Virus record (IMG/VR): IMGVR_UViG_2648501149_000017
Length of the DNA stretch: 15,337 nt
Direction: 5' to 3' (one strand)
Source: a virus
Taxonomy: Duplodnaviria > Heunggongvirae > Uroviricota > Caudoviricetes
Shown: positions 1,369 through 15,337 of the stretch, one piece after another
How positions within the stretch are numbered: the stretch's first letter is position 1
Layout: every line of letters starts with the position of its first letter
Notes under the pieces: generated by a model
The model's input: the letters and a program-made list of their open reading frames with translations, nothing else
Databases searched by the model: none
What the model was told of the DNA's origin: nothing
Translations under genes and position numbers: made by a program

Positions 1369-1444
1369 GCCGATATAGCTCAGTTGGTAGAGCAGCGCAT
1401 TCGTAATGCGAAGGTCGTAGGTTCGACTCCTATTATCGGCACCA
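1369..1444 (+). tRNA. thrW: tRNA-Thr (anticodon CGU)
   Basis: 76-nt sequence GCCGATATAGCTCAGTTGGTAGAGCAGCGCATTCGTAATGCGAAGGTCGTAGGTTCGACTCCTATTATCGGCACCA with cloverleaf arms, anticodon loop TTCGTAA and 3' CCA; sits downstream of proA as thrW does in E. coli. Confidence 0.93.
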
Positions 1445-1445
1445 T
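1427..1445 (+). repeat. attL core: 19-bp direct repeat (CTCCTATTATCGGCACCAT) formed by the tRNA 3' end
   Basis: Identical 19-mer recurs at 13848-13866; typical of tRNA-targeted integration by P4-type integrases. Confidence 0.8.
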
Positions 1446-1608
1446 CACCTAGTTTTCCCAAGTCAACCCACATCAACAAAATCATTTAAAAACATATATA
1501 TTACGTTATTTTCATACGTTTGAGGTCAACCCTTGTCTCTTGAAATCAACACGCGGTTGGGGGCACAATCAGGGGCATGTTCTGTTCGGTCTAGGAAATG
1601 TGCCCCCA

Positions 1609-2799
1609 ATGATGCTGAATGCCCGCAAGGTTGAAGCTGCGAAAGGAAAAGAGAAGAGCTACAAGCTGTTTGATGGAGGTGGCCTATACCTTCAGGTCGA
1701 ACCTAATGGCTCGCGTTACTGGCGTATGAAATACCGTTTTGCTGGTAAAGAGAAACGATTGTCCTTTGGTGTTTATCCAACAGTCACACTTGCTGATGCC
1801 AGACAAAAACGAGAAGACGCGAAGAAACTACTCGCAGCAGGTGAAGATCCCGGCGAAGTCAAAAAAGCCAAAAAGCAGGCTTTAAATGCAGCGATTGAGA
1901 CACTTAACCCATTCAGAGAAGTGGCGTTAGAGTGGCACAAAATGAAATCACCCAAATGGTCTGAGGGCTATGCTTCCGACATCATTGAGGCATTCGAGAA
2001 AGACATTTTCCCGCATATTGGGCACAGACCTATAGCTGATATTCAGCCCCTTGAACTGCTTGAAGTTCTGAGGTTGATAGAAGCTCGAGGCGCTATGGAG
2101 AAAGCGAAGAAAGTCCGTCAGCGATGCGGTGAAGTTTTTCGCTATGCCATCGTAACGGGTAGGGCAATCTACAATCCGGCACCGGATCTTGCCAGTGCGA
2201 TGCAAGGACATGAAGCAGTCCACTATCCATTCCTCAAAGCCAACGAACTACCGGAGTTCTTTAATGCCCTTAATTCTTATTCAGGAAGTCCAATTGTATT
2301 GTTGGGGGCGCATTTACTTATCCTGACAGGTCTACGAACTGGAGAACTACGAGCAGGTGAGTGGCGAGAGGTGGATTTTGATAATGCGGTGTGGGAGATC
2401 CCAAAAGAACGTATGAAAATGCGTAGGAGCCATATTGTCCCGTTGTCAAAACAAGCATTATCCCATCTCAAAAGTTTGAAAGAACTAACTGGGAACTACC
2501 CGCTGATGTTCCCTGGACGCAACGATCCTAGCAAATTTATGAGTGAAGCAAGCATTAATCAGGTGTTTAAACGTATTGGATATGCAGGGCGTGTTACGGG
2601 GCATGGTTTCAGGCATACGATGAGTACAATCCTACATGAGAAAGGATTTAACAGCGCTTGGATTGAAACCCAGCTTGCTCATTCGGACAAAAACTCTATT
2701 CGTGGAATTTATAACCATGCCCAATATCTCGAAGGGAGAAGAGAAATGATGCAATGGTATGCTAATTATTTATCTGAGCTAATTGGTACTCATAAATGA
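1609..2799 (+). CDS. int: P4-type tyrosine integrase
   Basis: N-terminal arm-binding-type region (KEKSYKLFDGGGLYLQVEPNGSRYWRMKYRFAGKEKRLSFGVYP) and C-terminal catalytic region with HGFRHT and a YNHAQY tyrosine segment. The listed ORF starts at a TTG at 1540; first ATG is at 1609 (tandem ATG ATG), which I take as the start. Confidence 0.92.
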   Translation: MMLNARKVEAAKGKEKSYKLFDGGGLYLQVEPNGSRYWRMKYRFAGKEKRLSFGVYPTVTLADARQKREDAKKLLAAGEDPGEVKKAKKQALNAAIETLNPFREVALEWHKMKSPKWSEGYASDIIEAFEKDIFPHIGHRPIADIQPLELLEVLRLIEARGAMEKAKKVRQRCGEVFRYAIVTGRAIYNPAPDLASAMQGHEAVHYPFLKANELPEFFNALNSYSGSPIVLLGAHLLILTGLRTGELRAGEWREVDFDNAVWEIPKERMKMRRSHIVPLSKQALSHLKSLKELTGNYPLMFPGRNDPSKFMSEASINQVFKRIGYAGRVTGHGFRHTMSTILHEKGFNSAWIETQLAHSDKNSIRGIYNHAQYLEGRREMMQWYANYLSELIGTHK

Positions 2800-3620
2800 A
2801 TATTTTAAAAATTAATAATACTGATTCTCTGCTCAGAGATTACTACCAGTTGGATGAAGCTTCAGAAAAAATTGGTTGTAGTGAAAAGGATATACTCTGG
2901 TTTGCCAGAGAACGAGATGTAGAGCTATGCATGGAATTCCATGATGATGAGTATGATGTTTCATGTGGTTTGAAGATTGATGGTCAAATGGATGAGTTCT
3001 TATCTAATCTGAAATATTTACCACGAGATAGAAATGGCAATATTATGTTGTCAGACTTAAGTTCTATAAGAATCCCTGATGAAGATAATTTAATTGATAA
3101 AAATGGTTTTATTCGATGTTTCATATCCGGTTTATGGGCTGTTGATTATGAATATAAAGATCTGTTAGTTAAGCATGAGGGGCAACCGGATTCTTGGCCT
3201 ATTCATTTTCTACTGGCGGGTACGCCTAATATAAATTGTAAGGTAATTCTTTATGTAAATTATGATGAAAAAGAAAATTATTATCTTTTTGAGGTTTTGT
3301 GGATTACAAAGGTACAGATTCAAAAATTCATTGATATAGTCTTATGCGAACAAAAGCGGATAAAAAACGCCAATAAATATAAATCACAATCTGAGGCGCA
3401 AAAACAAAAACATGCTGTTCCTCGAGCTGAAATACTCATGGCTATTATTTCGCTCTATCATCGTGATATGAGGCTAAGAAGAGAGAGTCCAGCAGCGATA
3501 GCTGATTATCTTTTTCAACATGCCAGTGAGTTCTGGCCTAAGACCGGAGAACCGCCTTTGAGCTATGATACTGTTGTTAGTTTGCTACGTAGTTGCATGA
3601 AAAACATTAAGTTTAACTAA
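2796..3620 (+). CDS. hypothetical protein (AT-rich, unknown function)
   Basis: 274-aa ORF whose ATG overlaps the integrase stop (ATGA), suggesting translational coupling; base composition is visibly more AT-rich than neighbouring core genes. No family recognised. Confidence 0.6.
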   Translation: MNILKINNTDSLLRDYYQLDEASEKIGCSEKDILWFARERDVELCMEFHDDEYDVSCGLKIDGQMDEFLSNLKYLPRDRNGNIMLSDLSSIRIPDEDNLIDKNGFIRCFISGLWAVDYEYKDLLVKHEGQPDSWPIHFLLAGTPNINCKVILYVNYDEKENYYLFEVLWITKVQIQKFIDIVLCEQKRIKNANKYKSQSEAQKQKHAVPRAEILMAIISLYHRDMRLRRESPAAIADYLFQHASEFWPKTGEPPLSYDTVVSLLRSCMKNIKFN

Positions 3621-4068: not shown

Positions 4069-4242
4069 TTAGCCTTTAGGGTCAATCCCGCGTGATTGGA
4101 GTTCTTTGCGTAAAATTCTTTTAATCCAAGTTGCCAACGCGCTATCTCCATCTTTGCGCATTTCGTTTTCGAGTTGCAACCTAAAATCGTCGGTAAGACG
4201 CATTTGGAATGGTGGAGAACGTTTCTCTTGTGGTGTTGACAT
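4069..4242 (-). CDS. Arc/MetJ-type ribbon-helix-helix DNA-binding protein (57 aa); not in the ORF track
   Basis: Minus-strand translation: MSTPQEKRSPPFQMRLTDDFRLQLENEMRKDGDSALATWIKRILRKELQSRGIDPKG; pattern of an N-terminal beta-strand (FQMRLTDDF) followed by two helices is Arc-like. Start codon overlaps a palindromic repeat. Confidence 0.65.
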   Translation of the reverse strand: MSTPQEKRSPPFQMRLTDDFRLQLENEMRKDGDSALATWIKRILRKELQSRGIDPKG

Positions 4243-4282
4243 GGTAATTACCCTAGAATATGATGACTACATGGTAATTACC
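4243..4282. promoter_or_regulatory. Two copies of the 10-bp perfect palindrome GGTAATTACC (4243-4252 and 4273-4282), each preceded by CAT; candidate operator
   Basis: Seen directly: CATGGTAATTACC occurs twice 30 bp apart, at the start codon and in the upstream region of the Arc-like gene, inside the divergent region shared with the icd-like operon. Confidence 0.5.
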
Positions 4283-4310
4283 ATTGTAAGTATAGTTCGC
4301 TTGTAAAAGC

Positions 4311-4345
4311 AATGCCCGATTGTGCGGGAACACAAATCGGGCATT
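4311..4345 (+). other. Perfect 11-bp inverted repeat (AATGCCCGATT / AATCGGGCATT) with 13-nt loop in the leader upstream of the icd-like gene
   Basis: Seen directly; lies 29 bp upstream of the ATG at 4374. No T-run follows, so not a classical intrinsic terminator; could be an operator or RNA structure. Confidence 0.45.
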
Positions 4346-4373
4346 TAACCAACCGTTATAAGAGGTAACGAAG

Positions 4374-4550
4374 ATGGCTAAACAGAAGTGTACCTGGTTA
4401 TTTGCGGCGATCAACCGCAGTCAACGCAATGCCTGTCCTGTGATGTTAAGGATCACCGCAGATAACGAGCGGTCAGCGCGGCGCAGACTTGCCCCGGACT
4501 ATGTACTGAGCTTTGCCGGGCGCATTCCCTGCGGAGGTGAACATGCGTAA
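4374..4550 (+). CDS. Icd-like host cell division inhibitor (58 aa); not in the ORF track
   Basis: Translation MAKQKCTWLFAAINRSQRNACPVMLRITADNERSARRRLAPDYVLSFAGRIPCGGEHA; the W.FAA ... RR.LAP ... LSFA.R.P pattern matches my recollection of P4 Kil/Icd-like proteins. RBS AGAGG upstream; stop overlaps the next ORF start. Confidence 0.65.
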   Translation: MAKQKCTWLFAAINRSQRNACPVMLRITADNERSARRRLAPDYVLSFAGRIPCGGEHA

Positions 4551-4902
4551 TTATCCGCACCCCGGCGAACGCTGGCAGCATGAACGTGGCTGGACGGTCA
4601 CGATTATCCGATTAATAGAAGCCTCGCCCTCTGTGGCGCTGGTTAATCCTGAATTCAGCTGTGAAGTGCTGATACGTCATGACAGCGACAACCAGCTTTC
4701 TTCCTGCCCTCTGGCATGGTTTGAACAGCGGTATACGCGCCTGTTTGATGTACCGCTCTTTAAGCCTGCACCAGCTCCTGCAGGCGGTAGTGGTTCCGGC
4801 CCGCTGACACTGCATCCGTCTGTGCTATTTATCCGCTGGCGGGAGCGTAGCATATGGCGTTCTGCTGAGCCTGACGACGGTCACTATTCAAAGTTTCTCT
4901 GA
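4543..4902 (+). CDS. hypothetical protein
   Basis: ORF with GGAGG RBS and ATG at 4543 (the listed ORF begins at an upstream TTG, 4513); contains a Pro/Gly/Ser-rich linker (KPAPAPAGGSGSGP). Family not recognised. Confidence 0.6.
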   Translation: MRNYPHPGERWQHERGWTVTIIRLIEASPSVALVNPEFSCEVLIRHDSDNQLSSCPLAWFEQRYTRLFDVPLFKPAPAPAGGSGSGPLTLHPSVLFIRWRERSIWRSAEPDDGHYSKFL

Positions 4903-4933
4903 CAAAATACCGCTGAAAACGGAGTAATCCACG

Positions 4934-5218
4934 ATGAATATTTCAAACGGGCACAACGGTGCTCAGGGCCACACTTTGCCTGAAAAACACAATACCGGTG
5001 CTTTTGCCTATGGGTTGTCAGAGGACAGTTTCGGAAAGCTGACCCGCGCAAGAAATGCCTGCGACATGCTCCAGCTTCTCTTTTCTGAATACCCGTCTCA
5101 GGCCGGAGCACTGGACGCTGGCTGTGCGCATGGTGTCGCCGCGCTGATGGAGTACCTGCTGGCAGATTTGACGGATATTGCACACAGTTGCGCACTGATT
5201 GAAGGAGGTGCCAGATGA
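4934..5218 (+). CDS. hypothetical protein
   Basis: 94-aa ORF with GGAG RBS; stop overlaps the next start (ATGA). No recognisable motif. Confidence 0.55.
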   Translation: MNISNGHNGAQGHTLPEKHNTGAFAYGLSEDSFGKLTRARNACDMLQLLFSEYPSQAGALDAGCAHGVAALMEYLLADLTDIAHSCALIEGGAR

Positions 5219-5598
5219 ACCAGCCGCAGGTTTCCATTTTCCCGGCAGAAATGACCACCGCGCTTTACCGGCGGGCTATTGCTTCAGCATGGCGGCAGAA
5301 AATGCTGAACGAAACTGGCAGTGATCAGTATGGTCCGCACAGCCTGACGGTGGAGCGTATTGAAATGGCCATTGCGCTGCATATCGAGTGCGTACTGATT
5401 AACGAGTACGGCGAAGTGCAGGGCGCCGCTACCGCGCTGGCACTGCTGACTGACATGCTGGAGCCGTCACTGCTGACCGCGCCGCCGGTACTGACCGCGC
5501 GCGGCTGTGAAGTGATGGCGGAGATGTACCGCACGCTTCCGGCGGCCTTTGATGACTTCTGCAGTACCGGTGTGACGTTGTATGAGGGGGAAGTATGA
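5215..5598 (+). CDS. hypothetical protein
   Basis: 127-aa ORF with AGGAGG RBS; translationally coupled on both sides (ATGA overlaps). Confidence 0.6.
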   Translation: MNQPQVSIFPAEMTTALYRRAIASAWRQKMLNETGSDQYGPHSLTVERIEMAIALHIECVLINEYGEVQGAATALALLTDMLEPSLLTAPPVLTARGCEVMAEMYRTLPAAFDDFCSTGVTLYEGEV

Positions 5599-8267
5599 CA
5601 ATACGGACGGTTACGCAGATTTCAGCCGCCGCACGGGGGAAATGGCCTGTTATTCTGCAGATGCTGCGTATTGATGTACCTGAAAACGGCAGGCACGGTC
5701 CCTGCCCGAAATGTGGGGGCAAGGATCGTTTTCGCCTTGATGACCTTGACGGGCGCGGGACGTGGATCTGCAGCCAGTGTGGCAATGGTGACGGTCTGGA
5801 TCTGGTTAAGCTCGTAACCGGTTACAGCGTCAGAAAGGCTGCGCAGGAGGTGGCGCAGGTGCTTAATGTGCCGGATGTGCAGGAACTGCCTGTTAAGCCT
5901 GCCAGACAAAAAGCCCCTAAACGAGACATGGGTCTTACCGTGGCGGCGCTGATGAAAGAGAGCCACACGGGAGAAAGTGCCTATCTGACAGGAAAAGGGT
6001 TCGCCGGATACCCGGCCTCTCTGACCGGAAGCGTGCAGCATATCAGCGGTAAGGATTTTCCTGCCGGTTCCCTGCTGTTACCACTCACGACCAACACCGG
6101 AGCCGTGACCGGTGCACAGCTTATCGCCCCGACGGGTGAAAAAAGCATACTGCCCGGCAGCACGATGAAAGGCGCGTTTGTGTCGCTCAGCCCGTTACCG
6201 TCTGAACCACCGGTACAGGTGGTGATTACCGAAGGTTACGCTACGGCGCTGACGGTAAGCCAGCTCACTGCCGGATGCGTAGTGGCTGCCATATCTGCGG
6301 GCAACCTGCCCAATGTGGCGCAGTCGCTGCGGGCACGCTGGCCTGAGGTAAAAATTATCATCGCCGGTGATAACGATTTTCAGGACGGGGGGGAGAATCC
6401 CGGCAGAGCCTTTGCTGAACGGGCGGCAAAAGCTGTTGGCGGCTGGATGACGCTGCCACCAGGAGAGATTAAGGCTGACTGGAATGACTTTCATCGGGAG
6501 CACGGTATTACCCGTGCCCGTGAAGCCTTTCGCAACGGTCTGGTACTGTGCGGGGAAGGCCGCACGCAACTGCCGCACGGGTTCCGTCTTACCCAGGAAT
6601 ATCTCTGGTATGAAAAGCAGGTACAGCGCAACGGTGAGACGGAGATCCAGAACGTCAAAATATGCAGCCCGCTGCGCGTGACGGCAATTACCTGCGATGC
6701 CGATGGCGGTAACTTCGGACGACTGCTGGAATGGGAAGATACGTGGGGTGAGTGTCGCCGCTGGGCGATGCCAATGGAAATGCTGAGCGGCAGTGGTGAG
6801 GAACTGCGCCGGGTACTGCTGGTTAACGGGCTGTCTTATATCAGCACCACCGGTGAGGCACGCGCACGCCTGATGGAATATATCTCACTGTGTAAACCGG
6901 AACGCCGCGTGACCTGCGTCAGTCGTACTGGCTGGCATGGTCAGGTTTACGTCCTGCAGGATGAGGTCAGCGGTGAAGGTGCAGAGGGTGTCATTCTCCA
7001 GACCACTTCCGTGCAGGGGCGTGATTTCCGCGTGTCGGGCACAACAGAGGAATGGCGGGAGCATGTATCCCGCTACTGTACCGGCAACTCCCGCGTGGCA
7101 TTTGCTGTCAGCCTGGCCTTTGCTGCACCACTGTTACGGCTGGTTGGTATGGACGGCGGCGGCTACCACCTCAAAGGGGAATCGACAGACGGTAAGACCA
7201 CCACCATGAAAGCGGCAACCTCCGTCTGCGGCGGGCCTGACTACTGGCAGACATGGCGGGCCACCGGCAACGCGCTGGAGGGATGCGCCAGCCGCCGTAA
7301 CGATGCCGCCATGATGCTTGATGAGATCCGGGAAGTTGACGGACGCGAGGCAGGCAATATCGCCTACATGCTGGCAAACGGTCAGGGCAAGGGCCGTGCC
7401 GGTACGGACGGTGAGCTGCGTACCCGTAAGCAGTGGCGCCTGTTGTTCTTTTCAACTGGCGAGTTGTCTCTGACCGAACATGCGGCAAAGGCCGGTGAGC
7501 GTACTTTTGCCGGGATGGAAGTCAGGATGATCCAGATCCCCAGCGATTCCGGGAAGTTTGGCGTTTTTGAGGAGCTGCACGGCTTCGACAGCGGCAAGGC
7601 TCTGGCAGAGCATCTTGAATGGGCCACGTCCTGCTACTACGGTTCGCCGTTCCGGGAGTGGCTGAAAGCACTGACCGCTGATCTTAACGGACTAACGGCA
7701 CAGGCAAAATCGCTGATGAAGGAATATGCTGCCGCCCTGACTCCGAAAGATGCAGGCAATCAGGTGGGCCGGGCTGTGAACCGCTTTGCACTGGTGGCGA
7801 TGGCAGGTGAACTGGCAACCCGTCTGGGTATCACCGGCTGGCCTGAGGGTGAAGCACTGCGGGCAACCCGCGTCTGCCTGAACGCATGGCTGAAAGATCG
7901 CGGGCACACCGCCAATCAGGAAGATATCGCCGCACTGGAGCAGGTTCGCAGTTTCTTTACCGCGAATCAGTACAGCCGCTTTGCAGACTGGTATGACGAG
8001 CGCAACCGCCCCGGCAATATGGTGGGCTGGCGCAGGGTGGAGAAAGGCAGTACCGCGCAGGGCACGGAAGCTGTCACTACGTTCTATGTCATGCCGTCCG
8101 GCTGGAAAGAAATCTGCAGGGGATTTGACCCGCGCAAGGTGGCGCGTCTGTGCGCAGATCGTGGATACCTGCTGCCCTCCACTGATGGCAAACTCCAGAC
8201 AACCATTCGCCCGCCAGAGATGAATCCCCGCAGGCTCTATGTCTTCAACAGCGAGGTGCCGGGTTAA
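5595..8267 (+). CDS. P4 alpha-type bifunctional DNA primase / P-loop NTPase (helicase-like)
   Basis: N-terminal zinc ribbon (CPKCGG ... CSQCG), TOPRIM motifs (ITEGYATAL ... IAGDND), then a P-loop domain with Walker A-like GESTDGKTT and Walker B-like MMLDE. Confidence 0.92.
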   Translation: MTIRTVTQISAAARGKWPVILQMLRIDVPENGRHGPCPKCGGKDRFRLDDLDGRGTWICSQCGNGDGLDLVKLVTGYSVRKAAQEVAQVLNVPDVQELPVKPARQKAPKRDMGLTVAALMKESHTGESAYLTGKGFAGYPASLTGSVQHISGKDFPAGSLLLPLTTNTGAVTGAQLIAPTGEKSILPGSTMKGAFVSLSPLPSEPPVQVVITEGYATALTVSQLTAGCVVAAISAGNLPNVAQSLRARWPEVKIIIAGDNDFQDGGENPGRAFAERAAKAVGGWMTLPPGEIKADWNDFHREHGITRAREAFRNGLVLCGEGRTQLPHGFRLTQEYLWYEKQVQRNGETEIQNVKICSPLRVTAITCDADGGNFGRLLEWEDTWGECRRWAMPMEMLSGSGEELRRVLLVNGLSYISTTGEARARLMEYISLCKPERRVTCVSRTGWHGQVYVLQDEVSGEGAEGVILQTTSVQGRDFRVSGTTEEWREHVSRYCTGNSRVAFAVSLAFAAPLLRLVGMDGGGYHLKGESTDGKTTTMKAATSVCGGPDYWQTWRATGNALEGCASRRNDAAMMLDEIREVDGREAGNIAYMLANGQGKGRAGTDGELRTRKQWRLLFFSTGELSLTEHAAKAGERTFAGMEVRMIQIPSDSGKFGVFEELHGFDSGKALAEHLEWATSCYYGSPFREWLKALTADLNGLTAQAKSLMKEYAAALTPKDAGNQVGRAVNRFALVAMAGELATRLGITGWPEGEALRATRVCLNAWLKDRGHTANQEDIAALEQVRSFFTANQYSRFADWYDERNRPGNMVGWRRVEKGSTAQGTEAVTTFYVMPSGWKEICRGFDPRKVARLCADRGYLLPSTDGKLQTTIRPPEMNPRRLYVFNSEVPG

Positions 8268-8293
8268 GGCTTTGCGTGAGTCTTATTTATTAA

Positions 8294-8488
8294 GGGTAAC
8301 AGGTGAAACAGGTGGAACAACCGTATTTTACAGGGCTGAATCTGTTCCACCTTCTGAAATAGTGAGGTGGAACAGATGTAACGCCAGCCAATCCGCTGTT
8401 CCACCTTGTTACCCGCGATGTTCCACCGGTGCAGTGTATATAAATGCTTTATAAAACAAATGGGTAACACATGTTTCACCTGTTACAC
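8294..8488. repeat. Iteron cluster (putative replication origin, P4 ori/crr-like)
   Basis: At least seven copies in both orientations of TGTTCCACC / TGTTTCACC (8302-8310, 8311-8319, 8343-8351, 8366-8374, 8397-8405, 8419-8427, 8472-8480) plus GGGTAACA / TGTTACCC variants (8294-8301, 8407-8414, 8462-8469, 8481-8488), immediately downstream of the primase gene. Confidence 0.7.
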
Positions 8489-8576
8489 CGCATCAGGGAC
8501 ATAAAGCAGACTGAAACAGAGGGCATTTTTATCTGGCTGGCTTTCATAGCCACGTCTGAATAACCGCAAGCGCCCG

Positions 8577-8641
8577 TTGTACCAGCCACCACACACTGAG
8601 CACCGATAGTGTGCTTGTGTCAGCCACGACACAATTGACGT
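8577..8641 (+). promoter_or_regulatory. Psid-like late promoter with two TGT-N12-ACA dyads (Ogr/Delta activator sites)
   Basis: TGT-N12-ACA at 8577-8594 and 8615-8632, centres 38 bp apart, upstream of the sid-like ATG at 8668. Matches the P2/P4 late-promoter architecture as I recall it (sites near -55 and -18), which would put the transcription start near 8641. Confidence 0.5.
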
Positions 8642-8667
8642 AACGAACCAACCCGACAGGAGAAGTC

Positions 8668-9411
8668 ATGAACAACACCGCAGTGAATAACAACCTTTCC
8701 ACTTTTCCGGCTGTAACGCAGCGGGCACTGGAAACCATGAACACAGCCAGAAACGCATGGCTTGAAGCACGTCGTCAGCAGAAAGCGGCAGCGGATAATA
8801 TTGCGACAATCCGCCAGCGTCGCGCTGAAATGGAAGCCACGACGAACACACTGAATGAGGAGTGGCGCACGCTGTTTCGTGAAAGTCAGGGCGTGGTCTC
8901 AAAGGAAATGAAAAAACTGCGCACGGAAATTGCGCTGGGACGAGAAACTCTTGAGGATTTTGATGAGCTGCTGGAGGCTCAGGAAAGCGAAAATGCACTT
9001 TTGCCGCAGAAAGCTGCGGAATTAGCCGGAAAGTATATCCACGCGCATAACATCCTTGTGGATATTCGCGCAAAACAAATCTGGGAAGATTTTATGCAGT
9101 CGCATGGAAAAGCGCTTATTCAGACGCTGAGCCTGCTTAAATCCACAATGGGCCGGGAAGCCAGTGCCGTTGTGGGTGTGGTGAATTCAGTTAATGACCC
9201 GGACACAGTGCTGAAAGACTTTATTCATAAACATATCACCAGACCGGCTCTGGCTAACGATGCGATGCCTGAGCAGGACCCGGTGTTTAAACTGGCGGGA
9301 GTTGCCCCGGATTATGCGGCGCGTCTGGATTTCAGTAATCAACTCTCTCCGGCAGCTATGCATAAAATTAAGGTTCGTCAGGAACTTGCTGAGAAGGAGA
9401 AAGCAGTATGA
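8668..9411 (+). CDS. Sid-like capsid size determination (external scaffold) protein
   Basis: 247 aa, similar in length to P4 Sid; the segment EEWRTLFRESQGVVSKEMKKLRTEI matches my recollection of a conserved Sid region; sits directly upstream of psu-like and delta-like genes. AGGAGA RBS. Confidence 0.65.
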   Translation: MNNTAVNNNLSTFPAVTQRALETMNTARNAWLEARRQQKAAADNIATIRQRRAEMEATTNTLNEEWRTLFRESQGVVSKEMKKLRTEIALGRETLEDFDELLEAQESENALLPQKAAELAGKYIHAHNILVDIRAKQIWEDFMQSHGKALIQTLSLLKSTMGREASAVVGVVNSVNDPDTVLKDFIHKHITRPALANDAMPEQDPVFKLAGVAPDYAARLDFSNQLSPAAMHKIKVRQELAEKEKAV

Positions 9412-9959
9412 CGGCCCGAGGCACGCCTGACCAGGCACTTACCAGTTTTCGGAATGCCCGTATTCTGTGGGCCGGACATAATGAGAGCCGAAAAGCCGTT
9501 GAACAACAGATAACATCTCTCCTCGCTGCCACAGAAAAACCAGCAGATTATGCCCGACAGCTCGAATTACTGCGGGAACGTCTGGATGTGCTGAAATGGC
9601 AAATTAACTGTGCTGCGCGCGAATGCATTTACTCGCAGCATTTACTGATGGAGGCCTGCACAGAAGCCGCTCTCAGCAATTTTATGCAGGCGAATGGGGC
9701 AGCCCTGACATCTGCACTGGCTCCGTTCCTGAAGGGGCGCGGAGGGGTTGACGTTGCGTCCCGTATATTACGCAGTGCTCTGGTTCGCCAGCTGGCAATA
9801 ACACCGCCTGAAATTGCCGGGGATTATCGTGAGATCCTGGATGAATCCGGTTTGATGCCTGACCCCGGGATGATTCGTGATTGCCAGGGTTCTTACACCC
9901 CGGCACAACATCTGCGTTTTCAGCAACGCCTGAATGACATTAACGATATACAGGAGTGA
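9408..9959 (+). CDS. Psu-like polarity suppression protein
   Basis: 183 aa, close to P4 Psu in length; segments ALTSALAPFL and YTPAQ resemble recalled Psu motifs; translationally coupled to the sid-like gene (ATGA overlap). Confidence 0.6.
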   Translation: MTARGTPDQALTSFRNARILWAGHNESRKAVEQQITSLLAATEKPADYARQLELLRERLDVLKWQINCAARECIYSQHLLMEACTEAALSNFMQANGAALTSALAPFLKGRGGVDVASRILRSALVRQLAITPPEIAGDYREILDESGLMPDPGMIRDCQGSYTPAQHLRFQQRLNDINDIQE

Positions 9960-9964
9960 TATTA

Positions 9965-10237
9965 ATGGCACTTAAATGTCCGGAATGCGGTACAGTTGCA
10001 CACGCCAGAACAGCAGCCTATGAAGCTCCGTCAGTTAAACGCTCGTGGTATCAGTGCCAGAATCTGGAATGTTCCTGCACATTTACGGCACTGGAGAGTG
10101 TGGATAAGATAATCATGAAACCCCGGCGCAATGAACAGCTATCAGACAAAGCACAATCCCCGGAAAAACAACAGCAAACGCTCAATCGCTATGGCTCCGC
10201 GTCAAAACTGTCAAGCCGTCAGCAGATTCCTGTCTGA
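9965..10237 (+). CDS. Ogr/Delta-family zinc-finger late transcription activator
   Basis: MALKCPECGTVAHARTAAY ... WYQCQNLECSCTF matches the Ogr signature (C.C.HART ... Y.C.N..C). The listed ORF starts at a GTG at 9956; the ATG at 9965 with AGGAG RBS is the more likely start. Confidence 0.85.
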   Translation: MALKCPECGTVAHARTAAYEAPSVKRSWYQCQNLECSCTFTALESVDKIIMKPRRNEQLSDKAQSPEKQQQTLNRYGSASKLSSRQQIPV

Positions 10238-10257
10238 TTAGAAAAAAACGCCCACGT

Positions 10258-10285
10258 AATCCCGGTCGAGTACCGGGATTTTTAA
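10258..10285 (+). terminator. Rho-independent terminator downstream of the delta-like gene
   Basis: Perfect 9-bp stem AATCCCGGT / ACCGGGATT with 5-nt loop followed by a T-run. Confidence 0.6.
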
Positions 10286-10312
10286 CACCTTTTCCCTGGC
10301 TGGCCTGAGAGC

Positions 10313-10420
10313 GCATGAGTGCATGTCTATGGCGCATGAAAATGCATGAGCCTTATGCACCTTTTTTGAGGCGAAAACCTTTGTGTGGTGGTATCTGAGA
10401 CGATTTATGGCATGCATGAA
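10313..10420. repeat. Cluster of GCATGA(A/G) motifs
   Basis: GCATGA at 10313-10318, 10334-10339, 10343-10348 and 10415-10420, with GCATG variants at 10321-10325 and 10411-10415, in the non-coding stretch between the late genes and the cargo cassette. Confidence 0.4.
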
Positions 10421-10766
10421 AACCAGTCTGTTAAGCGAAGCGGGCAGGCGTGCGGGGCTGCCCGCGATAGCACTGAAATCAACAGGTAAAACTATTTTTT
10501 ATTAGTAGTGTAAACTGGGAGCGAACGGACTCTGTCATGCTGTATCATCCTGTAATGATCAATCTCACTGGTGTCTGTATAGATGTCAACCAGTTTCGAC
10601 GGCTGTGTCTAACTTAAAATTAGAGCTTAATCAAGTTTTTCCTCGAGAATACTTTTAAAAGACAATGAGTTATGAGAAAGTGGAGGCTGTCACGTTGGTC
10701 ATATGTAACACTCCACGTAATCTTAATCGCTTTGTAAATGTTGAAGTTAATTAATAGGGAAAACTG

Positions 10767-11726
10767 ATGCTAACCAGGGCTGAAAATATAAGAAAAATCA
10801 CAAGCTATTTAGCTATTCTCTCAAGAGAGGTTGAGATTAGTGCCTCCCTCAATCTTTTGGATATCAACGTTCAAGCGGAATCTTTTTATAGAGATTTCTT
10901 AAACTTATGTTATGGATATAATTTAAGAAATACCAATAGTGAAGAGCAAAACTACCAAGCAATAGATCTTGCTGATGAAGATCGGAAGATTGCTATACAA
11001 GTAACTTCAACTTCTGACTTGGGAAAAATTAAGAATACAGTTGATGGATTTATAAAAAGTAAGCAATATGAAAAATATGATAGACTAATTGTACTGAATA
11101 TAACTGAAAAGAAAAAGCACAGATTGAAAGAGTATGGAATAGCCGGGTGCTATGTAATTAATATCAAAGATGATGTATGGGATTATAAGGATATAATTAG
11201 AAAGATAAACGATTTGAATGATTGTGATATATCAACAATATGCTCATTTTTGGAACGTAATATTAATACTAAAGCTGCTGATAAACCGCCGAAAGAAGTC
11301 ACAACTATGTTTGCGATGATTGAATTATTGAGTGATGATGCTCACCCATTGGCAGGAAATGGATTTATTGAAGAGCCTAATCCTGAAAATAAAATATATA
11401 AAAGATTTTCAGATTATTCAGAGCGGTTGATTGGCTTATATACTGGGTTAGCTCCATTATATAGTGGGATATTTAAGTCAATAAAAGAACAGAGCGATAT
11501 TGGTATCGTAAGGTACCAAAAGATGAGTTTGTATTTAGAGTCATTTAGTGATAAGGTCTTAAGAAGCCATGGTGGAGATCCTATCTTGGCGCTTAATTAT
11601 TTAAAAGAATATTTTTCTAAACAACTGAGCCAGAGAAATGTAGATTACGATGAAACAGCTATCAAATTTTTCTTAATTGAGAATTTAATTGCATGTAACG
11701 TCTTTCCTAATTCGGAGATTCTTTGA
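10767..11726 (+). CDS. cargo protein with SMEK-like N-terminal domain (putative effector of a three-component ABC-ATPase system)
   Basis: 319 aa, AT-rich; the N-terminal segment LNLLDINVQAESFYRDFLNLCYGYNLRNTN ... QAIDLADEDRKIAIQVTSTS resembles what I recall as the SMEK domain found in conflict systems. AGGGA RBS. Assignment is from memory, not a search. Confidence 0.55.
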   Translation: MLTRAENIRKITSYLAILSREVEISASLNLLDINVQAESFYRDFLNLCYGYNLRNTNSEEQNYQAIDLADEDRKIAIQVTSTSDLGKIKNTVDGFIKSKQYEKYDRLIVLNITEKKKHRLKEYGIAGCYVINIKDDVWDYKDIIRKINDLNDCDISTICSFLERNINTKAADKPPKEVTTMFAMIELLSDDAHPLAGNGFIEEPNPENKIYKRFSDYSERLIGLYTGLAPLYSGIFKSIKEQSDIGIVRYQKMSLYLESFSDKVLRSHGGDPILALNYLKEYFSKQLSQRNVDYDETAIKFFLIENLIACNVFPNSEIL

Positions 11727-11974
11727 TGTTAAGTTTTTTTTCGAAAGATGAGGATTTGACAAAATCCCCTCCTGTTGTAGGGGCTAAAATTCTTAATTTA
11801 TTTGACGAAACAAAAAAAGAAAAAATTAGTATTTTCGATTTAGCAAAAGAATTAAAGAAAAACAACTCTCTAGGAGTGCGTGCAATTTATTTTGGAATGG
11901 TCTTTCTTTATACTCTTGATCTTATCGATTTCGATGAGCCATATGTGATAAATAAAAATGTTAAGAATAAATAA
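11726..11974 (+). CDS. small middle-component protein (about 82 aa) of the three-gene cassette
   Basis: ATG at 11726 overlaps the upstream stop (TGATG); the listed ORF begins at a TTG at 11723. Its 3' end overlaps the ATPase gene by 17 nt. Size and position between effector and ATPase fit an ABC-three-component middle component or a Lamassu LmuC-like protein. Confidence 0.55.
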   Translation: MLSFFSKDEDLTKSPPVVGAKILNLFDETKKEKISIFDLAKELKKNNSLGVRAIYFGMVFLYTLDLIDFDEPYVINKNVKNK

Positions 11975-13673
11975 ACTATATAGCATACCAGAATCTTTTG
12001 AGCCAGTAAGCTTTGATAGTGGCATCAATATCATCTTAGGTGAAAAAGATGTTTCATCTAACAAAACTAATGGAGTGGGTAAAACTCTTTTAATAGAGTT
12101 TATTAATTTTTGTTTATTAAAAGAATTTAAGTCGAGTAGAGTTTCTAAAATTCCTCATTCTGATTTTTCGAAAGACATTTTGATATGCCTTGATTTTAAT
12201 ATTGATAATATTAACATTATATCCCAGCGTTCTATTGGGAAACATAATGAGCCAACACTTGTAATAAATGGAAAAACAATAGAGTTTAGTGGATTAGATG
12301 ATGCGTTATCTCATTTAAGCAATCTTATCTTTAAGAATAGTAAGGGTATACTTCATCCATCATTTAGAGCGATGCTGGGGCCTCTGATACGCGATGAACG
12401 ATCTGAATTTAAATCTATTGTTGAGTGCTTCGACACAAAATTACATATACCTGCTGACTATACTCCTCATCTTTATTTGTTAGGTATTGATATTGCTCCC
12501 TATAAAGAGGCAAAGATTTTACAACGAGAAATAGATGATTTATCAACTACAAAAAATAAAATAAAGAGAGATATTGAATTTCTGACGGGAAAAAAAATTA
12601 GTTCTGCAAAGGCAGAGGTTAATGATCTTAAATCAAAAGTTGAACATATCAGAAACGCTATGGATGCATTTGATAGCGATAGCAGTTATGAACTTATCAA
12701 AGATGAAGTAGAAGAATTAGAAAGTTCTTTAGAAGAGTTGCGGAATAAAAGAACAATACTTAAGTTAGAGCTTTCAAGAATAAATGCTCTCGTTGGTGAA
12801 GTATACATAAATGATGATGAAGTGGTTGAAATTTATAATAAATTTAAAGTTGGATTAGGTGATGCTATCAAAAAAGAACTTAATGATGTTATTTCATTTA
12901 AGAAAAAAATAGATCACTTCCAAAACACTTTGTTAAATACGCGAAAAGAAACATTACTTTCTGAATTGCGTAAGATATCAGATAAGCTATATACAGTAAA
13001 TAGACTTTATAAAGAAAAAGCTAGTGTTTTTGAGCAGGCGGGGGGGTTTAAAAGCCTGAAAATTTTAATAATGACTTATCAGAAAAAGTTAGAGGAGTAT
13101 TCACAGTTATCTTCATTGCTTAAAAAATTTGAAGATTTCGATTCTAAATGGAAAGTTAAGAAGTCAGAACGCTCTTCTATGATAATTTCGTTAGATCTTT
13201 CTATTATGGATAACGAAAAAACGATTGAATCTTTTGAGGAAACCATTTTATCAATCCATGAATATGTTTTTGGAAATAGAAAGTGTTCTTTCGAAATTAA
13301 GGCGACAGAGAAGAAAGAAACTATCTCAATGGATTTAAGAATTGATGATGACGGTAGTCATAGTAATGAGCGAGAAAAGGTTTTCTTTTATGATTTGGCT
13401 CTTTTACTTACAGAAGAAACGTTTCGACGTCACCCTGGATTATTAATTCATGATAATATTTTTGATGTGGATCAAGATACATTAATTAAAAGCTTGAATT
13501 ATTTGGCAGAGAAATCCAGTTGCTTAAATGATGCACAATATATTTTGACGTTAAATAGCGACAAAATTAGTGAAATTGATAAAAGAGATTTGAAACTAGA
13601 TATTAACTTCTATAAGCGAGCTTCGTTAACTAAAATAAATAGATTCCTGGGAAGGCATTATCAAGAAATATAA
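11958..13673 (+). CDS. ABC/SMC-like ATPase (Lamassu LmuB-like / ABC-three-component ATPase)
   Basis: 571 aa; N-terminal head with P-loop (INIILGEKDVSSNKTNGVGKTLLIEF), long charged probable coiled-coil middle (many E/K heptad-like stretches), C-terminal Walker B / D-loop-like LLIHDNIFDVDQD. Confidence 0.65.
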   Translation: MLRINKLYSIPESFEPVSFDSGINIILGEKDVSSNKTNGVGKTLLIEFINFCLLKEFKSSRVSKIPHSDFSKDILICLDFNIDNINIISQRSIGKHNEPTLVINGKTIEFSGLDDALSHLSNLIFKNSKGILHPSFRAMLGPLIRDERSEFKSIVECFDTKLHIPADYTPHLYLLGIDIAPYKEAKILQREIDDLSTTKNKIKRDIEFLTGKKISSAKAEVNDLKSKVEHIRNAMDAFDSDSSYELIKDEVEELESSLEELRNKRTILKLELSRINALVGEVYINDDEVVEIYNKFKVGLGDAIKKELNDVISFKKKIDHFQNTLLNTRKETLLSELRKISDKLYTVNRLYKEKASVFEQAGGFKSLKILIMTYQKKLEEYSQLSSLLKKFEDFDSKWKVKKSERSSMIISLDLSIMDNEKTIESFEETILSIHEYVFGNRKCSFEIKATEKKETISMDLRIDDDGSHSNEREKVFFYDLALLLTEETFRRHPGLLIHDNIFDVDQDTLIKSLNYLAEKSSCLNDAQYILTLNSDKISEIDKRDLKLDINFYKRASLTKINRFLGRHYQEI

Positions 13674-13847: not shown

Positions 13848-13866
13848 CTCCTATTATCGGCACCAT
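13848..13866 (+). repeat. attR core: second copy of the 19-bp repeat CTCCTATTATCGGCACCAT
   Basis: Exact repeat of the tRNA 3' end (1427-1445); only the tRNA 3' terminus is duplicated, not a full tRNA. Confidence 0.8.
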
Positions 13867-14019
13867 TCTAACGTCTCCCCAAGTCTACTCAAGTATTTAA
13901 AAACCTCTTATAATCAGTATATTAATGCCCCTTTTAGTCTTTTGACGTCTATTTAAGTACCCCAAACTCTACAAGCAATTGAGGGGATTTGCTGTTCAGT
14001 TTAGTGGAGATACCCCCAA

Positions 14020-14358
14020 GTGAAACTCAATGCCCGTCAAATAGACACTGCCAAGCCAAAAGAGAAGGCTTACAAGTTGGCTGATGGTGGTGGTCTGTAC
14101 CTCCTGGTAAAACCTGGTGGAGGAGAATATTGGCGTCTCAAGTATCGTGTAGCTGGTAAAGAGAAGCTGTTAGCACTAGGTGTGTATCCTGAGGTCACCT
14201 TAGCTGATGCTCCTGCAAAACTTGAAGAAGCTAAAAGAGGTATCTCTGGGGGAATCGATCTGATGGAAGTGAAGCGAGAGGAAAAGATTGCCCGGGAAAC
14301 GCAGTTAAACAACACCTTCAAAGATATTGCCCTTGAGTGGCACAGTAACAAATTATAA
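14020..14358 (+). pseudogene. Truncated P4-type integrase (N-terminal 112 aa only)
   Basis: Translation KLNARQIDTAKPKEKAYKLADGGGLYLLVKPGGGEYWRLKYRVAGKEKLLALGVYPEVTLADA aligns with the N-terminus of the intact integrase at 1609, then stops long before the catalytic domain; preceded by an upstream region resembling that of the intact int (CCCAAGTC, TTTAAAAAC). Confidence 0.8.
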
Positions 14359-14792: not shown

Positions 14793-14826
14793 TCAATTAA
14801 CATCAATTAACATCAATTAACATTAA
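14793..14826. repeat. Tandem 10-bp repeat TCAATTAACA x3 (plus partial copy)
   Basis: Seen directly at the 3' end / stop codon of the minus-strand MarR-like gene. Confidence 0.5.
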
Positions 14827-15337
14827 GGTTTGATAATAATTTTTTGTTGGCGAGTTCAAATGTTTTCATTTCATCATCTGATAGCCCGCTCCAGATTTTC
14901 TTTAGCATTACATTTTGAGTGTTTATTAGTTTTTGAGCAAGTGTAACTCCGTCAGGGGTTAAGCAAATACTTTTGCTTCGACGATCGTTTTTATTATTAA
15001 TTCTTTTGGCAATATTCTTTTTTTCTAATTTGTCTATGATGTGTGTGATGTTTGTTTTGGAGAATTGTAACTCCTTGTAAATATCAGAAGGGGACTGGCA
15101 ATAATCATCAGACATATATAATGAAACTAACACCATAAATGTTGAAGTGTTTATTCTATACTCGCTCAATTCATTTTCTATAATACTCTGGATTTTGTCA
15201 TTTACTCTAATATATAAGTGTATTAACAGACTCTCCTGAGCCGGGTATGCCGGATTTTTGATTTTTTTGTAGTTTGTTATAGTTTTTAATAAATCTATAT
15301 TATTCATAATTCCACCACACGGCAAAAGAAAACTCAT
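14813..15337 (-). CDS. MarR/SlyA-family transcriptional regulator (PapX-like small regulator)
   Basis: About 165-174 aa with a central winged-helix-like region (SPSDIYKELQFSKTNITHIIDKLEKKNIAKRINNKNDRRSKSICLTPDG) typical of MarR-family proteins; AT-rich. The ORF reaches the window edge; the start is either the ATG at the very end (15337) or the internal ATG at 15307 (MNNIDLL), or lies outside the window. Confidence 0.75.
   Translation of the reverse strand: MSFLLPCGGIMNNIDLLKTITNYKKIKNPAYPAQESLLIHLYIRVNDKIQSIIENELSEYRINTSTFMVLVSLYMSDDYCQSPSDIYKELQFSKTNITHIIDKLEKKNIAKRINNKNDRRSKSICLTPDGVTLAQKLINTQNVMLKKIWSGLSDDEMKTFELANKKLLSNLNVN

What the first reader, a model, noticed from the sequence alone, without database searches (positions are those of the whole stretch)
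10767..13673. AT-rich three-gene cassette in the P4 defence hotspot: candidate anti-phage system (SMEK-like effector + small middle protein + ABC/SMC-like ATPase)
Seen in sequence: three tightly coupled genes (1-nt and 17-nt overlaps) with a composition much more AT-rich than the flanking P4-like core; the 571-aa protein has an SMC/ABC-like head (GVGKT P-loop, C-terminal LLIHDN ... D motif) around a long coiled-coil-like middle. Established knowledge: P4-like satellites carry variable anti-phage systems between the psu/delta late genes and the att site, and effector / small protein / SMC-like ATPase is the Lamassu and ABC-three-component layout. Inference: this is a defence system, possibly a poorly characterised or new effector variant, since the 319-aa protein has a SMEK-like N-terminus plus an unrecognised C-terminal half.
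Basis: partly seen in the sequence, partly recalled or inferred. Interest (0 to 1): 0.88.

Follow-up and report, generated by a model that had tools for sequence, protein, structure and literature searches.

The report
SMEK-nuclease Lamassu-type defence cassette in P4 satellite
A P4-like phage satellite of E. coli carries, in its swappable cargo slot, a three-gene ABC-3C / short-Lamassu-type system (nuclease effector, small adaptor, Rad50-like ATPase) that most likely kills infected cells to stop phages; the type is already catalogued, so this is an ordinary though untested member.

Summary
Three co-directional genes lie at 10767-11726, 11726-11974 and 11958-13673, overlapping by 1 and 17 nt. 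Their GC is about 30%, against 50-60% in the P4-like core.

The window is a P4-like satellite integrated at tRNA-Thr, with 19-bp att repeats at 1429-1447 and 13849-13867. The cassette fills the slot between delta and attR. In E. coli HS30-1 the same backbone carries a retron St85 in that slot.

The proteins are:
- a SMEK (PD-(D/E)xK, Mrr-like) nuclease fused to a conserved helical C-terminal domain;
- an MC6 middle component;
- a DUF2326/YydD-type coiled-coil ABC ATPase. Its best fold matches are B. subtilis YydD, then an SMC head, solved Lamassu LmuB chains and Rad50.

The trio keeps the same order in 69 of 70 related loci across at least eight phyla.

It is an ABC-3C system, the class that recent Lamassu papers equate with type II Lamassu. 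A 2025 Lamassu paper lists SMEK among short-Lamassu effectors. The effector is therefore the standard architecture of a widespread family, not a new variant.

I found no experimental test of this subtype. 2023 PADLOC Lamassu models do not recognise it. Its Walker B is an invariant hhhhD-N.

Verdict: a new member of a known kind, of modest interest.

The parts
10767..11726 (+). Effector (LmuA-like, 319 aa). Residues about 1-165 are a SMEK / PD-(D/E)xK nuclease domain. Residues about 170-319 are a helical C-terminal adaptor domain (CTD) ending in the invariant CNVFPN motif.
11726..11974 (+). Middle component (LmuC-like, 82 aa), ABC-3C MC6 family.
   Evidence: Pfam MC6 scores 21 bits (E 3.4e-4), below the 27.2 cut-off. 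The protein is 61% identical to the L005 protein, which scores 33 bits. A homologue sits between effector and ATPase in 69 of 70 loci.
11958..13673 (+). Coiled-coil ABC / Rad50-like ATPase (LmuB-like, 571 aa), DUF2326/YydD family. Motifs: Walker A G39-V-G-K42-T; signature-like D465-G-S-H-S469; Walker B L495-L-I-H-D499 followed by an invariant N500; N533 at the H-loop position.
   Evidence: Pfam DUF2326 4e-19; PADLOC PDC-M68B 1.4e-48. The model has pLDDT 84.3. Foldseek hits: YydD 9a6c_A 4e-23; LmuB 9hqu_A, 9hqx_B, 9ux7_A and 9nyg_B at 5e-11 to 5e-9; an SMC head and Rad50 in the same range.
10238..10766 (+). Intergenic region between delta and the cassette. It presumably holds the cassette's promoter. 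GC falls from 0.49 to 0.36 across it.
   Evidence: The consensus scan found no convincing sigma-70 site here.
13849..13867 (+). attR: a 19-bp repeat (ctcctattatcggcaccat) of the 3' end of tRNA-Thr. It marks the right end of the satellite, 175 bp after the ATPase stop.
   Evidence: Read directly. Matches to complete genomes that carry the cassette end at 13867.
1429..1447 (+). attL: the same 19 bp inside tRNA-Thr (1369-1444 and adjoining bases).
8668..10237 (+). P4-like late genes sid-like (8668-9411), psu (9408-9959) and delta (9956-10237), which border the hotspot.
   Evidence: Pfam Psu 1.6e-9 and 1e-44; Ogr_Delta 1e-15.
1540..2799 (+). P4-type tyrosine integrase of the satellite.
   Evidence: Pfam Arm-DNA-bind_3, Phage_int_M and Phage_integrase.

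Best explanation
The cassette is an ABC-3C system of the short (type II) Lamassu kind, carried as exchangeable cargo in the defence hotspot of a P4-like satellite.

Proposed mechanism, inferred by analogy with the solved V. cholerae and Salmonella Lamassu complexes:
1. Two copies of the Rad50-like ATPase (ORF3), one small middle component (ORF2) and one effector (ORF1) form a resting complex. The effector's C-terminal domain is held in it and the SMEK nuclease is kept monomeric and inactive.
2. During phage or plasmid replication the ATPase-adaptor module binds free DNA ends or replication intermediates.
3. ATP binding, with slow or no hydrolysis, releases the effector.
4. The effector oligomerises through its C-terminal domain and assembles an active PD-(D/E)xK site.
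5. It degrades DNA indiscriminately and the infected cell dies (abortive infection).

Shown here: gene structure, domain identities, fold relationships, strict three-gene co-conservation, and hotspot position. Inferred: complex stoichiometry, trigger, effector activation and phenotype.
For: Domains:
- SMEK_N E 5e-46; MC6; DUF2326 E 4e-19.
- The SMEK domain is homologous to a solved pAgo-associated nuclease domain and has a restriction-endonuclease fold.
- The ATPase model matches YydD, four independent solved LmuB chains, an SMC head and Rad50.

Conservation:
- The Walker A lysine, the Walker B aspartate and a signature-like motif are invariant.
- The trio is co-linear in 69 of 70 loci across Pseudomonadota, Bacteroidota, Bacillota, Acidobacteriota, Campylobacterota and candidate-phyla-radiation (CPR) lineages.

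Context:
- Related loci sit next to a type I R-M (L007), a type III R-M plus UvrD (L003), in other P4 hotspots (L004-L006), and beside ArdA and PRTRC genes (L002).
- The commonest flanking families are ResIII, DEAD, integrase and T4SS coupling protein.
- Nine plasmids carry full-length effector homologues.
- The identical satellite backbone carries retron St85 in the same slot. The backbone occurs in 66 genomes, the cassette in 3.

Literature:
- ABC-3C is equated with type II Lamassu (bioRxiv 10.1101/2025.06.23.660979).
- SMEK is listed as a short-Lamassu effector; LmuA1B2C1 senses DNA ends and LmuA tetramerises via its CTD (PMC12663957).
- Lamassu-family systems, Lamassu-Mrr from E. coli SE15 among them, protect by abortive infection and need the ATPase, the effector and LmuC (bioRxiv 10.1101/2022.05.11.491447).
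Against: - I found no experiment on a SMEK/MC6/DUF2326 system.
- The PADLOC 2023 LmuB model matches only at E 0.014, and only in the coiled coil.
- A sequence profile of the ATPase finds no solved LmuB.
- The effector and middle component show no hhalign similarity to the validated SE15 LmuA and LmuC.
- The effector's C-terminal domain has no significant structural match.
- Walker B is hhhhD-N, outside the hhhhD[Q/S/T/E] reported for short Lamassu. N533 replaces the H-loop histidine, so ATP hydrolysis may be absent.
- One P4-borne 'Lamassu lacking a known effector' gave no protection against 28 phages (PMC13586616). Whether that system is this type is unknown.
- The fold match to LmuB is no better than to an SMC head or Rad50.
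Confidence: 0.75

Rival explanations
1. It is a separate ABC-3C lineage (YydD/DUF2326 type) that shares only the general three-part plan with Lamassu. The ATPase would act as a nucleotide-bound switch that does not hydrolyse ATP. The trigger would be something other than DNA ends, for example a phage protein or another DNA structure.
For: - The best structural match by twelve orders of magnitude is B. subtilis YydD, not LmuB.
- LmuB HMMs and PDB sequence profiles fail to connect the ATPase to LmuB.
- The catalytic-Glu and H-loop-His positions are invariant Asn.
- The C-terminal domain and the 82-aa middle component have no detectable similarity to validated LmuA and LmuC.
- PADLOC files the ATPase under a distinct unpublished candidate, PDC-M68.
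Against: - Haudiquet et al. seeded their Lamassu survey with the ABC-3C set and report SMEK effectors within short Lamassu. They also report divergent Walker B motifs as a short-Lamassu trait.
- The fold and gene order are the same as in Lamassu.
- The class of C-terminal-domain-only proteins lacking a nuclease resembles their 'clade O'.
Confidence: 0.15
2. The main role is competition between mobile elements rather than anti-phage defence. The cassette would eliminate plasmids (as DdmABC does) or act on the P2-type helper or rival satellites, or act as an addiction module that stabilises the island.
For: - Type II Lamassu DdmABC acts on plasmids as well as phages.
- The cassette rides on a satellite, on plasmids and in a locus with conjugation-related genes.
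- Lamassu systems are toxic when over-expressed.
Against: - Validated Lamassu systems and the tested P4 hotspot cargoes protect against lytic phages.
- The same slot holds an anti-phage retron in HS30-1.
- There is no antitoxin-like gene.
- These roles are not exclusive of phage defence.
Confidence: 0.07
3. It is a non-defence DNA-repair or chromosome-maintenance module (an SbcCD/Rad50-like function), or a decaying, non-functional passenger.
For: - The ATPase fold is equally close to Rad50 and to an SMC head.
- One E. coli copy (VE-T9) has the ATPase split into two CDS.
- A Salmonella cluster is truncated (P0159).
Against: - The distribution is patchy: 3 of 5426 complete E. coli genomes.
- The location is a hotspot, and the composition is AT-rich and foreign.
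- There is no Mre11/SbcD partner, and the ATPase is linked to a restriction-endonuclease-fold effector.
- All three ORFs are intact here, and motifs are strongly conserved across phyla.
Confidence: 0.03

Closest known systems
Short (type II) Lamassu, e.g. V. cholerae DdmABC / Lamassu Vc-Cap4 and Salmonella LmuACB (PDB 9nyg, 9hqu, 9hqx)
   Same: - The gene order is effector, small protein, ATPase.
- The ATPase is a Rad50-like coiled-coil protein of about 570-630 aa without a zinc hook.
- The effector is an N-terminal nuclease plus a C-terminal adaptor domain.
- Walker B is divergent.
- Foldseek E values to LmuB chains run from 5e-11 to 5e-9.
- SMEK is listed as a short-Lamassu effector.
   Different: - The nuclease is SMEK/Mrr-like, not Cap4.
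- The middle protein has 82 aa, against 164-182 aa for the four LmuC proteins listed.
- The adaptor domain is not detectably similar by structure. Sequence comparisons with LmuA and LmuC used only the SE15 proteins.
- Walker B is hhhhD-N.
- PADLOC 2023 LmuB models do not hit.
ABC-3C systems (Krishnan et al. 2020; Pfam MC1-8 and CTD families)
   Same: It has the defining three-component layout. The middle component falls in MC6, and RefSeq annotates the sister E. coli variant as 'ABC-three component system middle component 6'.
   Different: No Pfam CTD model matches the effector's C-terminal domain. I could not read the original paper.
B. subtilis YydB-YydD (PDB 9a6c integrative model)
   Same: YydD is the best structural match of the ATPase (E 4e-23, 18% identity), and both carry DUF2326. 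YydB gives the highest TM-score for the effector model (0.30, not significant).
   Different: The effector match is not significant. YydB (481 aa) does not match the SMEK nuclease domain, and from memory it is a metallophosphoesterase. I found no function reported for it in the searched literature.
Lamassu-Mrr of E. coli SE15 (experimentally validated, Millman et al. 2022)
   Same: It has three genes with an Mrr-type PD-(D/E)xK effector and an SMC-like ATPase. It acts by abortive infection and needs all three genes.
   Different: The protein families differ: LmuA 379 aa with Mrr_cat, LmuC 168 aa wHTH. hhalign probability is below 1%.
Short pAgo SMEK-APAZ systems (Kordia jejudonensis; PDB 26bh)
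   Same: The SMEK nuclease domain is homologous (E 7.5e-15 over residues 4-158). PADLOC 'Aga_REase' matches at 3e-41.
   Different: There is no APAZ domain and no Argonaute. The sensor is an ABC ATPase.
PADLOC candidate PDC-M68
   Same: The ATPase matches PDC-M68B at 1.4e-48 over nearly its full length.
   Different: Neither other protein matches a PDC-M68A model. The candidate is unpublished.

Membership tests
ABC-3C system | Three tightly linked co-directional genes: effector, middle component, ABC ATPase | tested here: met
   Overlaps of 1 and 17 nt. The same order holds in 69 of 70 related loci.
ABC-3C system | ABC-type ATPase with a coiled-coil insert between the two head halves | tested here: met
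   Walker A, a signature-like motif and Walker B are present. The model has helices 180-438 between beta-rich head halves. Fold matches are to SMC, Rad50 and LmuB.
ABC-3C system | Middle component belongs to a defined MC family | tested here: met
   MC6 scores 21 bits, below the 27.2 cut-off, for this protein. It is 61% identical to the L005 homologue, which scores 33 bits.
ABC-3C system | Effector carries a recognised C-terminal adaptor domain (CTD family) | tested here: inconclusive
   A conserved C-terminal domain exists and is found only with MC6 and DUF2326 partners. No Pfam CTD model matches any of 36 family members.
Lamassu (short, type II) | LmuB: SMC/Rad50-like ATPase related to known LmuB | tested here: inconclusive
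   Foldseek E values to four solved LmuB chains run from 5e-11 to 5e-9, the same range as Rad50 and an SMC head. The PADLOC LmuB HMM gives E 0.014, in the coiled coil only. No PDB sequence hit.
Lamassu (short, type II) | Walker A Gx4GK[S/T] and Walker B hhhhD[Q/S/T/E] (PMC12663957) | tested here: not met
   Walker A is K36-T-N-G-V-G-K42-T: the GK[ST] core is present but the first Gly is Lys. Walker B is LLIHD-N, with N500 invariant in 28 sequences. This is a close variant but outside the published pattern.
Lamassu (short, type II) | LmuA = N-terminal effector domain + linker + CTD; SMEK among the listed effectors | tested here: met
   SMEK is named as a short-Lamassu effector. There is no sequence similarity to the validated SE15 LmuA.
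Lamassu (short, type II) | LmuC homologue (HTH-like small protein) between lmuA and lmuB | tested here: inconclusive
   The position and small size fit. There is no similarity to SE15 LmuC.
Lamassu (short, type II) | Recognised by current DefenseFinder Lamassu models | not testable with these tools
   DefenseFinder is not available here.
Lamassu (short, type II) | Protects against phage by abortive infection; needs the ATPase, the effector and LmuC | not testable with these tools
   Needs an experiment.
PADLOC PDC-M68 | Both the A and B components are present | tested here: not met
   B matches at 1.4e-48. No PDC-M68A hit for ORF1 or ORF2.
Short pAgo SMEK-APAZ system | SMEK nuclease fused to APAZ and paired with a short Argonaute | tested here: not met
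   Only the SMEK domain is shared. There is no APAZ or PIWI domain in the window.
P4-like satellite defence hotspot | Variable cargo between psu/delta and int/att of a P4-like element, with known defence systems in the same slot | tested here: met
   int, alpha, sid, psu and delta were identified, as were the att repeats. The same backbone carries retron St85 in this slot in HS30-1. Sister cassettes lie between psu and int in L004-L006.

The most novel reading that the evidence does not exclude
The SMEK/MC6/DUF2326 trio represents a self-contained YydD-type branch of ABC-3C systems that pre-2025 Lamassu models miss. Its ATPase has Asn at both the catalytic-Glu and the H-loop-His positions. It would therefore work as an ATP-bound latch rather than a hydrolysing motor. 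Its adaptor domain also exists without any nuclease, in a class of about 175-190 aa. This hints at an output other than DNA cleavage, or at decoy or regulatory versions.
Probability: 0.15. Interest if true: 0.55.

Novelty: new member of a known kind. Interest (0 to 1): 0.3.

Why it matters
If it is active, it would be the first tested example of the SMEK-effector subtype of Lamassu/ABC-3C, in a convenient E. coli context.

It would also give a natural test of how far the Lamassu ATPase cycle tolerates loss of the catalytic Glu and the H-loop His.

It adds one more case showing that P4-like satellites shuffle defence cargo at a fixed slot: a retron in one strain, this cassette in another. It does not open a new class of system.

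Tried and rejected
- Sequence searches of the ATPase against solved structures, with the single sequence, a full profile and a C-terminal head profile, gave only coiled-coil noise or nothing.
- hhalign of the effector and middle-component profiles against the validated SE15 LmuA and LmuC gave nothing.
- I asked whether this is Millman's 'Lamassu-Mrr' of E. coli SE15. It is not; the proteins differ.
- The LmuB sequences in that paper's supplement are cut at 400 residues, so no full LmuB profile could be built.
- Krishnan et al. 2020 could not be opened.
- A search for the P2/P4 cos sequence as I remembered it found nothing. The promoter and terminator scans were uninformative.
- Literature searches for DUF2326, PDC-M68 and YydD returned nothing relevant.
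It was redone with alignment A3.
Full report
**Observation.** The window holds three + strand ORFs at 10767-11726 (319 aa), 11726-11974 (82 aa from the ATG that shares its A with the preceding TGA) and 11958-13673 (571 aa). GC is 0.28-0.33 across the cassette and 0.49-0.62 in the region 4250-10250. The P-loop GVGKT (39-43) and LLIHDN (495-500) are present.

**Surroundings.**
- The window starts in proA, followed by tRNA-Thr (1369-1444).
- Next comes a P4-like satellite: integrase 1540-2799; an AT-rich unknown gene 2796-3620; an AlpA-like regulator; an alpha-type primase 5595-8267 (Zn-ribbon, Toprim, DUF927); a sid-like gene 8668-9411; psu 9408-9959; and ogr/delta 9956-10237.
- A 19-bp repeat of the tRNA 3' end (ctcctattatcggcaccat) lies at 1429-1447 and again at 13849-13867. 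The element is therefore about 12.4 kb, and the cassette is its last cargo before attR.
- Once the element is excised and circular, that position is between psu/delta and att-int. This is the P4 hotspot defined by Rousset et al. (PMC9122126).
- In E. coli HS30-1 the same backbone, at the same tRNA, carries a retron St85 effector and reverse transcriptase plus a RipA-family protein in exactly this slot.
- The backbone gene at 2796-3620 occurs in 66 of 5426 complete E. coli genomes. The cassette occurs in 3.
- A sister cassette (47-57% identity) lies between psu and int in other E. coli and Enterobacter P4-like elements.

The hotspot claim is supported.

**The effector (ORF1).**
- It matches Pfam SMEK_N (E 5e-46, residues 10-148) and NCBIfam SMEK_N.
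- It is homologous to the solved nuclease domain of the Kordia jejudonensis Mrr/SMEK-APAZ partner of a short Argonaute (26bh_D, E 7.5e-15).
- Residues about 170-319 are helical and match no Pfam family in any of 36 homologues. They have no significant Foldseek hit.
- This half is nevertheless conserved over its full length in the family, with invariant P204, P206, K209, R213, F214 and a terminal C-N-V-F-P-N motif.
- Searched alone against 1.84 billion representatives, it finds only 163 clusters. These fall into two length classes: about 315-325 aa (SMEK plus this domain) and about 175-190 aa (this domain behind a short Gly/Asn-rich tail, without a nuclease). Shorter, fragment-like and intermediate-length entries also occur.

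It behaves as a dedicated adaptor domain.

**The middle component (ORF2).** It scores below the Pfam MC6 cut-off (21 against 27.2 bits). It is 61% identical to the sister E. coli protein, which passes at 33 bits and which RefSeq names 'ABC-three component system middle component 6'.

**The ATPase (ORF3).**
- It carries DUF2326 (E 4e-19) and matches PADLOC candidate PDC-M68B (1.4e-48). It does not match LmuB models (E 0.014, coiled coil only).
- Its model (pLDDT 84.3) has an N-terminal and a C-terminal head half joined by helices 180-438.
- The best Foldseek match is B. subtilis YydD (9a6c_A, 4e-23). Next, at about 3e-11 to 5e-9, come an SMC head, four solved Lamassu LmuB chains (9hqu_A, 9hqx_B, 9ux7_A, 9nyg_B) and Rad50.
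- Invariant columns in 28 sequences include K36, T37, N38, G39-V-G-K42 (position 43 is Thr or Ser), D465-G-S-H-S469, R472, E473, L496, H498, D499, N500, D505, Q527 and T531.
- I placed these on the model's secondary structure, and on the usual ABC motif order as I remember it for SbcC. Both placements are my own reading. By that reading D499 is the Walker B aspartate. The residue where the catalytic glutamate normally sits is an invariant asparagine. The H-loop histidine position is N533.

**Conservation of the trio.** A scan of one genome per species with the effector alignment returned 70 loci. They come from Alpha- and Gammaproteobacteria, Campylobacterota, Bacteroidota, Bacillota, Acidobacteriota and Patescibacteria. 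tblastn shows the middle component and the ATPase directly downstream, in the same order, in 69 loci. The one exception is a contig that ends 160 bp after the effector.

**Context of related loci.**
- Neighbourhoods with precomputed domains include a type I R-M (L007), a type III R-M plus a UvrD helicase and an integrase (L003), and a locus flanked by ArdA and PRTRC genes (L002).
- Among 133 flanking ORFs from 36 loci, the commonest Pfam families are ResIII (5), DEAD (4), phage integrase (3), MFS_1 (3), response regulator (3) and T4SS coupling protein (3). I ran no background control, so this is only suggestive.
- Nine plasmids carry full-length effector homologues.

**What it is.** The layout and families are those of an ABC-3C system. 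Recent Lamassu papers equate ABC-3C with type II Lamassu. The most complete survey (Haudiquet et al., PMC12663957) seeded its search with the ABC-3C set and lists 'HNH, SMEK, and Lipase' as effectors specific to short Lamassu. It also describes a clade that lost the effector domain. That clade resembles the 175-190-aa class seen here.

**Likely mechanism.** I infer it from those structures. An effector1-ATPase2-adaptor1 complex senses DNA ends or phage replication intermediates. The effector is released and oligomerises through its C-terminal domain. The assembled nuclease then degrades DNA, giving abortive infection. None of these steps was tested for this subtype.

**Limits of the membership claim.**
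- PADLOC 2023 Lamassu models do not recognise the ATPase.
- Profiles find no solved LmuB by sequence.
- The effector and adaptor share no detectable similarity with the validated SE15 Lamassu-Mrr proteins.
- Walker B (hhhhD-N) lies just outside the published short-Lamassu pattern hhhhD[Q/S/T/E].
- The closest structure is YydD rather than LmuB.

I therefore file it firmly as ABC-3C and probably as short Lamassu. I keep a 15% rival that it is a separate YydD-type branch with its own trigger.

**Literature on function.**
- I found no paper that tests a SMEK/MC6/DUF2326 system.
- A 2026 study of P4 hotspots reports that most untested cargoes protect against phages. Its one 'Lamassu variant lacking a known effector' did not. 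[quoted passage not shown]

**Verdict.** The effector is the standard one for a widespread, catalogued subtype. This is a new, experimentally untested member of a known kind, sitting in a confirmed defence hotspot. Interest is modest (0.3). The main open points are the asparagine-substituted ATPase site and the lack of any functional test for this subtype.

Noticed in passing
window 2796-3620 (+): A 274-aa ORF in a second AT-rich patch (GC 0.33). It overlaps the integrase stop by 4 nt. It has no hit in Pfam, PADLOC or PHROGs. It is present in 66 of 5426 complete E. coli genomes, always next to this integrase. It may be backbone-linked cargo of unknown function.
   Followed up: partly
L080 21266-23630 (E. 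coli HS30-1): The same satellite backbone at the same tRNA-Thr carries a retron St85 effector and reverse transcriptase plus a RipA-family protein in the delta-attR slot, in place of the cassette.
   Followed up: yes
window 13868-14358: Directly after attR comes sequence found next to tRNA-Thr in about 1400 E. coli genomes. It is followed by a 112-aa ORF (14020-14358) that is only the Arm-DNA-binding N-terminus of a P4-type integrase. This looks like the remnant of an older island at thrW, giving a tandem arrangement. The three complete genomes that carry the cassette have a different right junction.
   Followed up: partly
window 8668-10237 versus L006 1968-3511: The gene order here is sid-psu-delta. 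The Enterobacter P4-like element has sid-delta-psu. The integrase is at the opposite end and in the opposite orientation relative to the hotspot.
   Followed up: no
L079 4559-6273 (E. coli VE-T9): The otherwise 99.8% identical cassette has the ATPase annotated as two overlapping CDS (AAA family ATPase + DUF2326). This indicates a frameshift, which is either inactivation or an assembly error. A Salmonella Newport cluster (P0159, 329 aa, 'partial') is likewise truncated.
   Followed up: partly
L076 764-1718; proteins P0274, P0309, P0323, P0363, P0340: A class of 175-199-aa proteins has the effector's C-terminal domain but no nuclease. Their N-terminus is a Gly/Asn-rich peptide of the type GxNxPNVxGxxNxV. 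In L076 (Peribacteria) the upstream ORF has a hydrophobic helix and ends in the same kind of peptide, so a frameshifted or split membrane-type effector is possible. The middle component and the ATPase follow as usual.
   Followed up: partly
L005 142-1101 (protein P0031): The sister E. coli variant, present in 7 complete genomes, has Val where the family's nearly invariant D67 sits (AIDLAD becomes SIVLID). Its close Citrobacter relative keeps the Asp. This may be an inactivated nuclease site.
   Followed up: no
window 4239-4252 and 4269-4282: A perfect 14-nt direct repeat, ACATGGTAATTACC, spaced 30 nt apart. It contains the palindrome GGTAATTACC. It lies in the regulatory region between the AlpA-like gene and the Icd-like gene, and could be an operator pair.
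   Followed up: no
window 14813-15337 (-): A MarR-family regulator (Pfam MarR 1.6e-9) in AT-rich DNA outside the satellite. Its weak PADLOC 'CARF3' hits most likely reflect only the shared winged-helix region.
   Followed up: partly
window 11355-11408 (effector residues 197-214): The most conserved stretch of the C-terminal half (G-NGF-EEPxP-xxKIxKRF) lies inside the segment that AlphaFold predicts with pLDDT below 50 (residues 195-214). This is the pattern expected for a partner-binding interface.
   Followed up: no
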